Origin: Scyliorhinus canicula
Taxonomy: Eukaryota
Assembly (NCBI RefSeq): GCF_902713615.1
Contig: NC_052174.1
Coordinates: 10,782,514-10,846,513, forward strand
Direction: 5' to 3'
Length of the DNA stretch: 64,000 bases
A program made the position numbers. Of this stretch, positions 39,001 to 45,000 are shown one piece after another (the first letter of the stretch is position 1; each line of letters opens with the position of its first letter).

Positions 39001-42000
39001 CACCACTAATTCCACATATTACCACCTTTTAATAATAATAATAATTATTGTCAAGTAGGCTTACATTAACACTGCAATGAAGTTACTGTGAAAATCCTCT
39101 AGTCGCCACATTCCGCTGCCTGTTCGGGTACGCTGAGGGAGAATTCAGAATGACCAAATCACCTAACAGCACATCTTTCGCGACTTGTGGGAGGAAACCG
39201 GAGCACCCGGAGGAAACCCACGTAGACACGGGGAGAATGTGCAGACTTCGCACAGACAGTGACCCAAGCCGGGAATCGAACCTGGGACCCTGGAGCTGTG
39301 AAGCGGCAGTGTTAACCACTGTGCTACCGTGCCGCCCAATACTCCTTCCGGACTACATATCTCTTTATCGCTCACCATTAAAGTTTGACTTGCTCCTGTA
39401 TCCTTTAAGCTCTTAATCTCCTTACACTCCATATTGTAGACATGAGTAAACCTTACTCCCACAAATGATTTGGTACCTGCTTTTCCACCAGCCTCTGAAT
39501 AGGTTGTACACTGTGTTGCACCTCTTCCACTGGAACAATGGTTTCTCTTCCCACTTTAATAAACCCGCTAGCTTTTCCTGTTTTGATTAATCTGTCTTTC
39601 CAGTAATTTACTGACACCACCAACATTGCAACTTCATGTGTCCTACTTTATTACAATGAAAATGTTTAGGTTTTCTCGTCTCTCTTCCACTATCATAGGT
39701 TTCATGTTTAACTGAGGCAAACATTCCTTACTTTGCTTTGTGAACTCATTCAACATCATCTGCCATTTCTGCTGCCTGTCTAGCAGTTTTAACCCTTTGC
39801 TCTTCCATTTGAGTTATCACGGGATATGGTATTTTAAAACAAACTTTATTATTAACACAGTATTAAAATATCTTCAACATCAAACAAGAAAATAACTCAG
39901 ATATAATCAATACACTGACACAATAACCCTTAACTGCTATCTTTATTCACACTCAAACAACAAAATCATTTCAGCTCCCAATCCACTTTTAGTCACAGTT
40001 AGCAGACCCAGGGATACTTGTTGTACAGTGATACTCTTTGAGACTGCTTTAAGAGATAAACCTTAACCCTGTTAGAACAATGCAGGATCTGTAGCTGAAG
40101 TCTTCAGAAACTGTCTTCATGGTTTGACTTTCAACTCCCAACTGAAATTAACGGCCTCTTTTCAAAATGCCTGGTTCTCGAGCTCCTCCCATTAGACAAC
40201 ACATTTGCAAGCTTAAGTACAATGTATCTAATTAACCCCACAGGAAACTATCTTAACCCAAATAAAAGTGCATTAGCTCAAGCTTTTACGATGCTTTAAT
40301 TGCATTTCTGGCTCCTAAAAAGTCCAGCTGCCTTGCAAACCTGGATTTATTAATCTACGGCAGGGCCAGGGCAGGTACAAGAAGCTACTGCAGCTGTCAT
40401 ACACATTGTAACACATTCTAACTCAGGCTTTTAACCCTTTCTGTACCAAATATATATAACACGATAGATCTGGAATCCCAACAATCATCACACCTCAAAT
40501 TCTAAAGCAAAACCAAAAATGTCGGCAGATCAATTGCCAAATCTATACTCAGGGCACCTACACTTCAGTCACTCATTATTATTCCATTTGTGTTTCCAGT
40601 GCATCAGCTCAGTGTAAATCCTCCCTGTGTTCCTCTCTATTTCCAGATCGGTCTGGGATCTGCTCTCATTGTGGATGATGGACACACAGCCGTAATTGAA
40701 CTGCTTAAAGTAGCTGCTTCAGAGTGGGGCAATGGAGTTGCCAGCTTGCTTCACCAAAGGTCTATCAAGCTGATAAGAGCGATGTCCTCAGAGGTTCAGA
40801 AGCAAAGTTTTATCACGGCGCTCAAGTTCTACAAAGGATGTTGTGTATTAGGCAAACAGGTACAATTTGCGTGCAGTTATACTCACACACCAGCTATGTT
40901 TCATTGTGTCACACTCCTGTCTCTGAGCTGTAAGGCTGGTGTTCCTACCAGAGATGGAGCATAAAAACCAAAGCTGCCACTCGCAGCACAGTTCGGAGGG
41001 AGTGCTGCACTGTCAGTGATGTTGACTTTTGGATGAAGTGCACTGATTTCCCAAGTGTCTGATCAGTTGAGTGTAAAGGTTCTCATGATGCCTATTTCAC
41101 AGGATCTCATAATAATAGAGTGCAGGAGAGGACCATCGACCCATTGAGTCCGCACTGCGCCTGAAAAACACCTGACCTGCCTATCTGATCCCATTTGTCA
41201 GCACTTAGTCCATAACCTTGAATATTATGACGTGCCAAGTACTCATCCAGGTAGTGCGTTCCAGACCCTCACCATCCTCTGGCTTAAAACGATTTTCCTC
41301 CCAATCCTCCTAAACCTCCTGTCCCTCACCTTGAACTTGTGCCCCCCTCATAACCGACCCTTCACCTCAGGGGAACAGCTGCTCCCTATCCACCCTGTCC
41401 GTGCCCCTTATAATCTTGTCCACCTCGATCAGGTCACCCCTCAGTCTCTGCTCCAAGGAAAATAATCCAAGCCCATCCAACCTCTCTTCATAACCTAAAT
41501 GTTCCATCCCAGGCAACTGGTGAATCTCCTCTGCGCCCCCTCCAGTGCAATCACATCCTTCCTATAGTGTGGTGACCAGAATTGCACACAAAACTCCAGC
41601 TGTGGCCTCACCAAAGTTCTATACAACTCCAACATGACCTCCCTGCTTTTGTAACCCATGCCTTGACTAATAAAGACAAGTGTCCCATGTGCATTTTTGA
41701 CCACCCCATTAACCTGCCCTTCCGCCTTCAGAGATCCATGGACAAACACTCCAAGGTCCCTTTGTTCCTTGGAACTTCCCAGTGTCAGGCCATTCATTGA
41801 ATACCCACTTGTCGTGTTACCTCTTCCAAAGTGGATCACCTCACACTTTCCAGGGTTAAATTCCATCTGTCACTTTTGTAACCATCCCATCTATATCCTC
41901 CTGTAAGACAAATGGGGAATTTCACTATTGTCCCTGGAAAAATGTACCCTGAATAAGAAAAATTATCCACTCGTTATCACGGTGTTCTTTGTGGGATCTT

Positions 42001-45000
42001 GCTGTGCACACACTGGCTTCAAATTATTATATCAATCTGTGTCTCTCTGTTTTTTACTATGTAATTGAACATAATGTATTCTCCTGGACAAGATTAACAA
42101 ACCCCAGTGCTGATCAACCTCTGCAACGCTGGGAAATTGACCCGAATGATGTTTTTCAGAAACAAACAACCAGAAATATAAATTTCACAGAGAGTCAGTG
42201 AGAGATTCTGTCTGAATCTTTCTCACTGAACAGTTTTAATGAGTGAAGGACAATGACCCATATCTTCCAGGTTTCCCGGCGTCGCATGTAGGGGATATCC
42301 CTATGATGTCCTGGAAATCCCTCCCGGATGTTCCAACGTGAGGGTTTACCCGAAAACCTCCCGGAAGTGCTAACTTCATCTGGACAATTACGCTGGGCTG
42401 GGAATTATCGGACAGACAATGATTTAGGTCACTAACTTCACATGGTCCTGCTAGTTTCACCCTGATAGTTACTCTGAAAGAGTTAGAGGAAAGAAGTCAC
42501 TCCTAACTGCAGAGTAACTATGTAAAAAACCCAAATGCAGAAACCTATCCCTCTTGGACGTAGCCCCCTCCTTCACTCCCTCCCGGACTGACGTCTGCCT
42601 CCCTTCCCCGCTGACGTCCAATTTGGATTGATTGTCACATGTTCTGAGGTATAGTGAAAAGTATTGTTCTGCGTACAGTCCAGACAGATCGTCCCACACA
42701 TGAAAAACATAGCACATACGGTAAATACAGTGTAAATACATAGAAATAGACATCGTGTGAAGCATATGGAATGTAGTGCTACTCAGTAGAGAAGACGCGT
42801 GAAGAGATCAGTTCAGTCCATAAGAGTGTCATTTAGGACATCCAAACTTCCCATCCCGGAGAAATCCATCTCCCTCCCTCCTAGACAGATCATCCCCCCA
42901 AATCCTTCCCCCCCTTCCTGGTTGACCCCCCCACACTTGCCCCCTGCCGTTCAAACCCCTGCCCCCCTCTCAATTGGGTACGAATACCTGCCCCCTCCCC
43001 CCTCGACATTCCCTAATCTTATAATTTACCCTCCCTCTTTATTGCAGCTGATCCTGTAAAAAGGAAGGGTTACTGACCTCTCTGCGCCAGTGGTACTGCC
43101 GTGCCAATCGGTGCCATGGTTCCCAAGATCCGAACTTTACGGACGCTTTTACGAACGGTCAGACCAGGTGTGTTTGACGTTCCTAAAAACGGTCGTAAAG
43201 GGCTTGGACTTCGGCCCATCGGCCAGCTGAGAATCGCTGCTCGCCGTAAAAAAACGGCGGGCAGCGATTCGTGTCGGGAGGCGGGCGTGGGGGGGAGAAT
43301 AGCGGGAGGGCGTCAGACTAGCGTGGCCGTACAAATTTACGACCCCCGCTATTCTCCGCACCGTCGTGAGTGCGGAGAATCGCTCCCCTCATTTTTTAAA
43401 TTACCCGCGATTCTCTGCCCGATTGCAATTCAGGTTTCCGGGAGTTACGATGCTCAGAATCCAGATCATGGTTGAGGTCTTAAAAATCTTGAGGAGTGTG
43501 CACAAAGCCAAAAGCGAGAAAGTGTTCCTGCTCGTGGAAGAACCAAGAACGAAAGAATACGGATTAGAGGTAATTTGTGAAAGGAGCAAAACGACATGTG
43601 AAACGCAGAGGGATTGGTTAGGGTCTGCCTGAGAGTATGGGAGAGGCAGATACAATCGAGCATTCACACGGAATTTAGACTGTTATTTCAAAAGAAAGTG
43701 TTCAGCATCACGGGGAGAAGGTGCGACAATGGCACTGGGTAATTGGCTCATGGGGGGGGGGGGGAGAGCCGGCACAGACAGGATGGGCCCAACGGCCTCC
43801 TTTTGCGCTGTAACAAATCCCTGATTCCATGATGTTAATTAGTGCCCTCTCACTGCGGCCATTGCCTGGAATCTGTGCTTGATGATCATGGGCAAATGTG
43901 GACTTGACCAAGTAGGAGGTCCGTCTCCCATGGATACCGCAGCGGTGGATGACGGGTGTGTGGGAGGACAGAGGGTAGAAGCAGAGAAATAGAATCCTCA
44001 ATGTAGTAAAATGTGATGCAAAATGTCCTTCAGCCTGCAGTGTGACTGAACTTTGCATTGATAAAGTGAGCTAACATCAAAAAGACAATATCAGATGATA
44101 AAATGTAATATAAAGAATAAACGTTTCACAATATTAGTAGGTTATACCAAATACAAAGCAATGTAGGGTAGGAGAAAGGGATTCACAGGATATGGGGCAA
44201 AGAAATAGGCCATTCAGCCCAACCAGCCTCTGCTGTAATCTTCCCAATTCTTGACAATAGTGAGGTTGAAGGGCAGCACGTTGGTGCAGTGGGTTAGAAC
44301 TGCTGCCTCACGGCACTGAGGACCCAGGTTCAATCCCAGCCCTGGATCACTCTCTGTGTGGAGTTTGCACATTCGCCCCGTGTCTGCGTGGGTCTGACCC
44401 CCATAAACCCAAAGTGTGCAGGGTAGCTGGACGTTACATTGACCCTTAATTGGAAAACTTAACATAAAAGAGTGAGGTTTCAGATGGGAGGTAAATGAGC
44501 AATGGGAGGGTCTCACAGAGAGATTGTTCAGGTACACACAAGGTACATTCCCACAATGGGGGTGGGAAATGTTAATGTTAAAATTTCACAATCCCAGTGC
44601 AGATCGGCAATCGTATCGACTACACTCTAATGATCGACGGCCTCACATTTCACCCTCCGACTGTCTGATTCCTGCGCCCGATCTACTCTTTATTCCAACC
44701 TTGTTTGTCTTTCACAAGCCCCAGTGCACCTTGTTTCACCCACCATTTCAATAAAATAGATTTGCATTGCTATAGCGCCTTTAAGCTCAGCAGCCAATCT
44801 ATGCATGGCAAGATTCCACAGTCAGCATTGGGATAATGACCAGGTAATATGTTTCTGGGGATGTTGTTGAGGGATCAGGATGTTTGTGACTCAGACTAGA
44901 GTGTGACCAATCGAACCACAGCTGACTGGCACTGTGTCTGAATGCTGCACCCTGCTTCTCCAACCCAACAAATTTGTTCAATCCCTCCCCACGCTTATCC

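What the first reader, a model, noticed from the sequence alone, without database searches (positions are those of the whole stretch)
40860..44467. Copy A has no terminal exon before the next unit: truncated duplicate, or variable cassettes spliced to a shared exon?
Seen: between exon 4 of A and the start of unit B I find only TEs and short unique stretches, with no homolog of the ~600-nt terminal exon. Yet all four exons of A are open with canonical splice sites. Inference: a partial duplication not yet decayed, a GNAT-half isoform, or a UGT1A/protocadherin-like layout where promoter + N-terminal cassettes splice to a common downstream last exon.
Basis: partly seen in the sequence, partly recalled or inferred. 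Interest (0 to 1): 0.65.

Follow-up and report, generated by a model that had tools for sequence, protein, structure and literature searches.

The report
Head-only NAT16-like gene copy
Copy A holds only the front half of a NAT16-like (histidine acetyltransferase family) gene and really has no last exon before copy B begins, which most likely makes it a leftover of gene duplication and rearrangement rather than a new splicing system.

Summary
The core observation holds. Between exon 4 of copy A (40647-40859) and the start of unit B (44468) nothing resembles the terminal exon, by relaxed tblastn/blastn or by profile search of all six frames.

The gene is a diverged NAT16/HisAT-like double-GNAT acetyltransferase. 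The window holds two 'heads', A at 27823-40975 and B at 44468-63613. It also holds two 'tails' (Hisat_C terminal exons). Both tails lie upstream of A as an inverted pair, 14627-15220(-) and 19931-20663(+), and both are damaged. B's exon 4 ends 510 nt before the window ends, so B's own tail is unseen too.

A and B are a mosaic. Promoter to exon 3 differs by about 11%, the exon 4 patch by about 28%. Neither head has a stop, frameshift or lost splice site.

Best reading: A is a partial, head-only paralogue left by duplication and rearrangement. On the published NAT16 structure it cannot make a working enzyme alone. A shared-tail cassette layout is not excluded, but it does not fit the UGT1A/protocadherin rule of single first exons, and the window ends too early to test it. 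Interest is low to moderate.

The parts
27823..40975 (+). Unit A ('head' copy): promoter-side region, candidate exon 1, exon 3, exon 4 and 116 nt of downstream flank colinear with unit B
   Evidence: blastn blocks colinear with 44468-63613 at 71-87% identity; alignment of the 5' parts
28384..28412 (+). Candidate first coding exon of A (ATG, MGLSLSTCN, donor CAG|GTAA, ends in phase 2); not verified by homology
   Evidence: Conserved with B 45247-45275, differing by one base within the exon. It needs an unlocated exon 2 to reach the frame of exon 3
36915..37076 (+). A exon 3 (162 nt, phase 0-0): start of the first GNAT domain
   Evidence: PDB NAT16 9emo E=1.2e-9, matching human residues 52-103; splice sites caag|TAC and GTG|gtgagt conserved in B
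40647..40859 (+). A exon 4 (213 nt, phase 0-0): strand beta4 and the acetyl-CoA loop of the first GNAT domain; the motif reads W-G-N-G-V-A
   Evidence: Pfam Acetyltransf_1 E=7e-4, below the curated cutoff; PDB NAT16 E=0.008; splice sites
40860..44467 (.). Spacer between A exon 4 and unit B: no terminal-exon homologue
   Evidence: no hit; 849 of 3608 nt are repeats; no other feature
41242..41873 (-). LINE fragment inside the spacer
   Evidence: 68-76% identity to 6 other window copies, including the RT-bearing element at 47683-48684 (RVT_1)
44268..44431 (+). SINE-like repeat about 36 nt upstream of the start of unit B
   Evidence: 13 matching copies elsewhere in the window
44468..63613 (+). Unit B ('head' copy): candidate exon 1 at 45247-45275, exon 3 at 56285-56446, exon 4 at 63278-63490; N gap at 46024-46162 left untouched
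14627..15220 (-). Orphan terminal exon copy M: 198-codon open frame, acceptor ctatag|CTG in phase 0, with an 88-nt TE-derived insert at 14756-14843
   Evidence: Pfam Hisat_C E=1.9e-14, but only profile positions 4-86 of 124; PDB NAT16 E=1.6e-5; the insert matches repeats elsewhere
19931..20663 (+). Orphan terminal exon copy P: 4-nt deletion near 20096, in-frame TAA at 20296-20298, SINE at about 20345-20536
   Evidence: Pfam Hisat_C E=1.4e-13 on the piece 20098-20295; inverted homology to copy M at 82%; lesions read

Best explanation
Copy A is a head-only paralogue of a diverged NAT16/HisAT-like double-GNAT acetyltransferase gene. It keeps a promoter-side region, a candidate ATG exon and the two exons that encode most of the first (acetyl-CoA-binding) GNAT domain. 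The terminal exon, which encodes the end of that domain and the whole second GNAT domain (Hisat_C), is absent from the 3.6 kb before unit B.

The locus is a rearranged paralogue cluster with two heads in tandem (A, B) and two broken, inverted, orphan tails upstream. A and B are a mosaic of a younger 5' part and an older exon 4 patch, so gene conversion or unequal exchange has acted on old paralogues.

Shown: the layout, the family assignment, the absence of a tail, the mosaic divergence, and the intact frames and splice sites.

Inferred: A arose or was truncated by segmental duplication or deletion. By itself it cannot yield a working enzyme. It is either a recently truncated unprocessed pseudogene or is transcribed only as read-through into B.
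For: Family. Exon 3, exon 4 and the tail match human NAT16 chains 9emo/9emd in order, at human residues 52-103, 106-165 and 220-290. The tail matches Pfam Hisat_C.

Layout. There are exactly 2 copies each of exon 3, exon 4 and the tail in the whole window on both strands. Nothing tail-like lies in 40860-44467 or 63491-64000.

Rearrangement. The tails at 14627-15220(-) and 19931-20663(+) are inverted copies, 82% identical over 373 nt. Their homology is confined to the exon. No head lies on either side of them.

Decay control. The tails carry a 4-nt deletion, a stop codon, a SINE and an 88-nt TE insert.

Mosaic. The 5' non-coding blocks have 200 mismatches in 1753 aligned nt (11.4%). The exon 4 patch has 95 in 344 (27.6%), Fisher p=3e-13. 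Intron 3 cannot be aligned beyond its first 72 nt.

Relaxed constraint. A-versus-B dN/dS is 0.38 for exon 3, 0.75 for exon 4 (not different from 1) and 0.59 summed (p=0.058). A's acetyl-CoA motif has W where the family has R or Q.

Structure. The first GNAT domain needs strands from the tail (PMC12219266, section 9).
Against: Neither head shows a stop, frameshift or lost splice dinucleotide in exons 3 and 4, although exon 4 is 29% diverged. In a rough neutral simulation using the locus's own indel rate, A's two exons with their 4 splice dinucleotides stay intact with probability 0.06 at 5% divergence per lineage and 0.004 at 10%. A long-dead fragment is therefore unlikely. A was under constraint until recently, or it still is.

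Against human NAT16, A is the better copy in exon 3 (40.6 versus 26.3 bits), while B is better in exon 4 (27.4 versus 19.8). A is not uniformly the degraded one.

The 3' limit of the duplicated unit cannot be set, because B's sequence beyond 64000 is not in the window.
Confidence: 0.55

Rival explanations
1. Shared-tail cassette array. A and B (and perhaps more heads beyond the window) are alternative N-terminal GNAT modules, each with its own promoter. Each is spliced to one common Hisat_C terminal exon downstream of B.
For: Both heads are intact after deep divergence of exon 4, while both orphan tails in the same locus have decayed. The exon 4 donors are identical over CAGGTACAATT in A and B. 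That donor is phase 0 and the tail acceptor is phase 0 in both tail copies. Exons 3 and 4 are both 0-0, so any combination stays in frame. The 5' regions are conserved for about 560 nt upstream of the candidate ATG.
Against: No downstream tail is visible, since the window ends 510 nt after B exon 4. The only tails are upstream or inverted, and broken. In known variable-first-exon clusters each variable unit is a single first exon spliced to constant exons (PMC1885805 passages). Here B's exons 3 and 4 have good acceptors, which would compete for A's donor and give in-frame head-head fusions. dN/dS of exon 4 is not distinguishable from 1.
Confidence: 0.17
2. Assembly artefact. A's terminal exon exists in the genome but was dropped or misplaced.
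For: The region is repeat-rich and holds paralogous units. Two tails sit in an odd place upstream.
Against: 40860-44467 is continuous sequence without N. The only gap (46024-46162) lies inside B's first intron, between blocks that stay colinear with A. A and B are only 71-89% identical, too different for a collapse. Both misplaced tails are genuinely damaged.
Confidence: 0.07
3. Stand-alone short product. A is translated as a half-GNAT protein, with exon 4 read through for 34 more codons to a stop at 40962-40964 or polyadenylated in the spacer.
For: The frame stays open 34 codons past the donor in A and 29 in B.
Against: The product would lack beta6, the swapped beta13 and the whole second domain that forms half of the substrate pocket (PMC12219266, section 9). 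The flank shows no coding-like conservation, at 27% mismatch.
Confidence: 0.05
4. A has acquired a new, non-homologous 3' exon somewhere in the spacer.
For: 76% of the spacer is unexplained sequence. It contains an ORF of 132 aa at 43077-43475.
Against: That ORF and 3 others in the spacer have no Pfam match (0 of 4). Nothing marks them as exons.
Confidence: 0.05

Closest known systems
NAT16 / HisAT (histidine N-acetyltransferase), double-GNAT fold (PDB 9EMD, 9EMO; Pfam Hisat_C PF24066)
   Same: The order and content of the three conserved coding exons match human NAT16 residues about 48-175 and from about 183 onward. The tail matches Hisat_C. Phe63 and Tyr79 equivalents are present in both heads.
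   Different: Tyr74 falls in a 3-residue gap in both heads. Gly123 is Leu in A and Cys in B. Trp246 is Gly in both tails. Arg131 of the acetyl-CoA motif is Trp in A. These are therefore diverged NAT16-like paralogues, probably not histidine-specific, and copy A lacks the second domain.
Variable-first-exon clusters (UGT1, GCNT2, clustered protocadherins)
   Same: Tandem, same-strand paralogous 5' units with conserved upstream regions and a conserved phase-compatible donor.
   Different: There the variable unit is one first exon, preceded by its own promoter and spliced to constant exons (PMC1885805 abstract and passages). Here each unit has at least two internal exons with acceptors, and no constant exon is in view.
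Unprocessed partial duplicates (truncated segmental-duplication copies)
   Same: Colinear homology through promoter, introns and exons; truncation relative to the full gene model; copy-specific TE insertions, namely a LINE at 31424-36632 in A and a Ty3/Gypsy-type element at about 49.6-52.5 kb in B.
   Different: No disabling lesion in the retained coding exons.
Mutually exclusive tandem exon duplicates (my recollection; no paper read on this)
   Same: Duplicated 0-0 phase exons in tandem that could substitute for each other in frame.
   Different: Such exons normally share one promoter and lie within one intron-sized interval. Here whole multi-exon modules with their own 5' regions are duplicated 16.6 kb apart.

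Membership tests
NAT16/HisAT family | Sequence similarity of the N-terminal GNAT domain to NAT16 | tested here: met
   PDB 9emo: A exon 3 E=1.2e-9, B exon 3 E=5.6e-5, A exon 4 E=0.008, B exon 4 E=3.3e-5
NAT16/HisAT family | Acetyl-CoA motif Q/R-x-x-G-x-G/A after beta4 | tested here: inconclusive
   B reads R-G-K-G-V-G (met). A reads W-G-N-G-V-A, with the first position lost. Motif as given in the introduction of PMC12219266
NAT16/HisAT family | Second GNAT domain (Hisat_C) following the first in the same gene | tested here: not met
   For copy A, no Hisat_C-like sequence lies in 40860-44467. For B it is not visible, because the window ends
NAT16/HisAT family | Histidine-stacking residues Tyr74 and Trp246 (enzyme specificity) | tested here: not met
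   Tyr74 lies in a 3-residue gap of both heads. Trp246 aligns to Gly in tail M and, through the M/P codon alignment, to Gly in tail P. Residue roles from PMC12219266, section 9
Variable-first-exon cluster (UGT1/GCNT2/PCDH type) | Tandem array of paralogous variable units on one strand | tested here: met
   Two units, A and B, start to start 16,645 nt apart
Variable-first-exon cluster (UGT1/GCNT2/PCDH type) | Each variable unit is a single first exon with a donor only | tested here: not met
   Exons 3 and 4 of both units are internal exons with AG acceptors
Variable-first-exon cluster (UGT1/GCNT2/PCDH type) | Common constant exon(s) downstream of the last variable unit | not testable with these tools
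   The window ends 510 nt after B exon 4, and no eukaryotic genome collection was available
Variable-first-exon cluster (UGT1/GCNT2/PCDH type) | Transcripts joining each variable unit to the constant part | not testable with these tools
   No RNA data
Unprocessed partial-duplicate pseudogene | Colinear homology including non-coding parts, truncated at one end | tested here: met
Unprocessed partial-duplicate pseudogene | Disabling lesions in retained exons | tested here: not met
   No stop, no frameshift and 4 of 4 splice dinucleotides kept in A exons 3 and 4

The most novel reading that the evidence does not exclude
A and B are alternative multi-exon N-terminal modules of a double-GNAT acyltransferase. 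Each has its own promoter and its own version of the acyl-CoA/substrate-side half, and both splice to one shared second-GNAT exon downstream of B. This would be a combinatorial enzyme locus built from multi-exon cassettes rather than single first exons. The intact, fast-evolving exon 4 copies (dN/dS 0.75, no lesions at 29% divergence), set beside decayed orphan tails, are what keep this reading open.
Probability: 0.15. Interest if true: 0.65.

Novelty: new member of a known kind. Interest (0 to 1): 0.3.

Why it matters
If A is just a truncated paralogue, the value is practical. Annotators should not call A (or the two orphan tails) a gene, and should expect chimeric or read-through models at this locus. 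The window also shows that this genome carries NAT16-like paralogues lacking the residues that hold histidine in the human enzyme, which hints at other substrates.

If the cassette reading were true, it would extend the variable-exon principle of UGT1 and protocadherin clusters to multi-exon modules of a two-domain metabolic enzyme.

Tried and rejected
Exon 2. A scan for AG...GT open segments of the right phase between exon 1 and exon 3 gave 424 candidates in A. Requiring conservation in B still left 228 candidate segment-and-phase readings across four colinear blocks (0, 217, 8 and 3). None could be chosen without RNA or protein evidence.

C-terminal frame of the tails. The last 43 residues of tail M gave no NAT16 hit in PDB (best hit E=1.7, unrelated). 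My impression that this stretch is the ancestral C-terminus rests only on recollection of the human sequence and on its being open and 92% identical in both tails.

Structure of tail M. A single-sequence AlphaFold2 model had mean pLDDT 35 and pTM 0.24. It is unusable, so no fold search was run.

ESM Atlas with the first 125 residues of tail M: no usable hit.

Sensitive realignment of intron 3 (word 7, +1/-1 scoring). Only the first 72 nt and three short pieces of 27-31 nt aligned.

SINE-mediated unequal exchange as the duplication mechanism. The repeats next to the two unit starts are in opposite orientation, so simple recombination between them was rejected.

Literature. Searches 'NAT16'+'histidine' (5 papers) and 'NAT16'+'paralog' (9 papers, 8 listed) turned up nothing on NAT16 expansions or partial copies in fishes. 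In PMC4496688 the words shark, elasmobranch and cartilaginous do not occur.

Not run: any search or fold of the joined exons. The spliced model was handled exon by exon only. dN/dS counts were computed per exon and summed as numbers.
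Full report
WHAT THE WINDOW IS. The window is repeat-rich vertebrate DNA with many SINE and LINE copies. Reverse-transcriptase, endonuclease and integrase ORFs are present. I do not take it for human. Its NAT16-like exons align to the human NAT16 PDB chains with many substitutions. The repeat families look to me like those of a cartilaginous fish, but that is recollection and no tool confirmed it. One N run (46024-46162) was left untouched.

THE GENE FAMILY. Their copies in unit B (63278-63490 and 56285-56446) match with E=3.3e-5 and 5.6e-5. 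Exon 4 is also borderline for Pfam Acetyltransf_1. A 198-codon ORF at 14627-15220 on the minus strand matches Pfam Hisat_C (E=1.9e-14) and NAT16 (E=1.6e-5).

Converted to human numbering, where 9emo lacks residues 5-45, exon 3 covers about residues 48-103. Exon 4 covers about 105-175 and the terminal exon starts near 183. No exon is therefore missing between 'exon 4' and the '~600-nt terminal exon'. Both exons are phase 0-0. The exon 4 donor and the tail acceptor are both phase 0.

NAT16 is a double-GNAT enzyme. The first domain (to residue 184) binds acetyl-CoA. Strands beta6 and beta13 are swapped between the domains. Histidine sits between Tyr74 of domain 1 and Trp246 of domain 2 (PMC12219266, section 9 read).

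In the window's copies Tyr74 falls in a 3-residue gap, and Gly123 is Leu in A and Cys in B. Trp246 is Gly in both tails, and Arg131 of the Q/R-x-x-G-x-G/A motif is Trp in A but Arg in B. These are diverged NAT16-like paralogues, not obvious histidine acetyltransferases.

THE LAYOUT. Self-comparison shows two colinear units on the plus strand, A at 27823-40975 and B at 44468-63613. Their blocks are 71-87% identical and are interrupted by copy-specific TE insertions. One is a LINE at about 31.4-36.6 kb in A. Another is a Ty3/Gypsy-type element at about 49.6-52.5 kb in B.

Profile searches of all six frames find exactly two copies each of exon 3, exon 4 and the tail, and nothing else with E<0.1. 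Both tails lie upstream of A as an inverted pair. Tail M is 14627-15220(-) and tail P is 19931-20663(+). They are 82% identical over 373 nt, and their homology is confined to the exon.

Tail P has a 4-nt deletion, an in-frame TAA and a SINE insertion. Tail M is open, but it carries an 88-nt TE-derived insert that shifts the frame, and its Hisat_C match stops at profile position 86 of 124. Neither tail has a head on its proper side. A TM4SF/L6-type last exon at about 8.1 kb occupies part of the upstream space.

B's exon 4 ends at 63490, so B's own tail, if it has one, lies outside the window.

THE OBSERVATION. Relaxed tblastn with six tail peptide pieces, and blastn with both tail DNAs, found only noise in 40860-44467 (best hit 16.5 bits) and in 63491-64000. 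The core claim is therefore confirmed.

Of the 3608-nt spacer, only 849 nt can be assigned to repeats by similarity within the window. The remainder has no Pfam hit on its four large ORFs, no Rfam family, no tRNA and no tandem repeat.

I found one candidate ATG exon (28384-28412, with its B counterpart at 45247-45275). It ends in phase 2, so it needs an exon 2 that I could not identify.

HISTORY OF THE COPIES. Divergence is not uniform. The 5' non-coding blocks differ at 200 of 1753 aligned sites (11.4%). The exon 4 patch with its short flanks differs at 95 of 344 sites (27.6%), Fisher p=3e-13. The 116-nt non-coding flank alone differs at 31 of 116 sites, p=1e-5.

Intron 3 cannot be aligned beyond its first 72 nt, even with sensitive settings. 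A and B therefore look like old paralogues whose promoter-to-exon-3 part was homogenised, or re-duplicated, later.

Nei-Gojobori dN/dS between A and B is 0.38 for exon 3 (p=0.035). It is 0.75 for exon 4 (p=0.38) and 0.59 for the summed counts (p=0.058). The tails give 0.55 (p=0.053). The exons were analysed one by one and only the counts were added.

IS A DEAD? The tails give an internal picture of decay in this locus: five lesions in about 600 nt at 18% divergence. The heads have none. I ran a rough neutral simulation using the locus's own ratio of indels to substitutions (25 events per 241 mismatches). It gives A's two exons and four splice dinucleotides a 6% chance of staying intact at 5% divergence per lineage, and 0.4% at 10%.

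A has therefore been constrained until fairly recently, or it still is. A is also not uniformly the worse copy. It is closer to NAT16 in exon 3, and B is closer in exon 4. This is the main evidence against a simple 'old pseudogene' reading, and it keeps the cassette idea alive.

WEIGHING THE READINGS. A alone cannot give a working enzyme. It would lack beta6, the swapped beta13 and the domain that forms half the pocket. The 'GNAT-half isoform' is therefore unlikely.

A UGT1/GCNT2/protocadherin-type arrangement needs single variable first exons, each with its own promoter, spliced to constant exons (PMC1885805: abstract and passages seen). Here the downstream unit has internal exons with good acceptors. 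These would capture A's donor and give in-frame head-head fusions. No constant exon is in view.

An assembly error is unlikely. The spacer is gap-free and the units are too different to collapse.

I therefore favour a partial, head-only paralogue in a rearranged cluster (0.55), with the shared-tail cassette as the main rival (0.17). Only sequence beyond the window and RNA evidence can decide between them.

WHAT STAYED UNCHECKED. No eukaryotic genome collection or repeat library was at hand, and paper supplements could not be opened. The single-sequence fold of tail M was unusable, with mean pLDDT 35.

Noticed in passing
window 14627-15220 (-) and 19931-20663 (+): An inverted pair of orphan Hisat_C terminal exons, 4.7 kb apart and 82% identical. 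Their homology is limited to the exon itself. Tail M keeps a 198-codon open frame even though an 88-nt TE-derived insert shifts the frame, so the TE piece is read as part of the frame.
   Followed up: yes
window 8080-8270 (+): The start of an ORF matches the C-terminal end of Pfam L6_membrane (TM4SF family), E=3e-21, profile positions 135-191 of 191. It is probably the last exon of a neighbouring TM4SF-like gene.
   Followed up: partly
window 28384-28412 and 45247-45275 (+): The candidate first coding exon in both units begins M-G-L-S-L-S. From recollection this looks like an N-myristoylation-type start (Gly2, Ser6). The exon itself is unverified.
   Followed up: no
window 49638-52469 (+) and 52576-53014: A Ty3/Gypsy-type element (RNase H, integrase zinc-binding domain) sits in B's intron. 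It is followed by a GC-rich array of 10 copies with 33-34-nt spacing that encodes proline-rich repeats in several frames.
   Followed up: partly
window 31424-36632: A LINE with endonuclease and RT pieces on the minus strand is inserted in A only. It splits a block that is contiguous in B (55917-56518).
   Followed up: partly
window 42250-42620: Unique spacer sequence with repeated tcccgg(a/c) motifs and two TGACGTC (CRE-like) sites next to a CCAAT, about 1.9 kb upstream of unit B. This was read by eye only.
   Followed up: no
window 43077-43475: A CpG-rich 132-codon ORF with no Pfam match. It contains short 'gagaatcgc/attctccgc' motifs also seen near 38000, so it may be an unclassified repeat.
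   Followed up: no
window 46024-46162: The only N run (139 N) lies in B's first intron. The flanking blocks stay colinear with A (28720-28900 and 29076-30249).
   Followed up: partly
window 59940-60300: An imperfect CA-rich repeat array (units around 'cacagaatcacacacaa') that gives a long His/Thr-rich pseudo-ORF.
   Followed up: no
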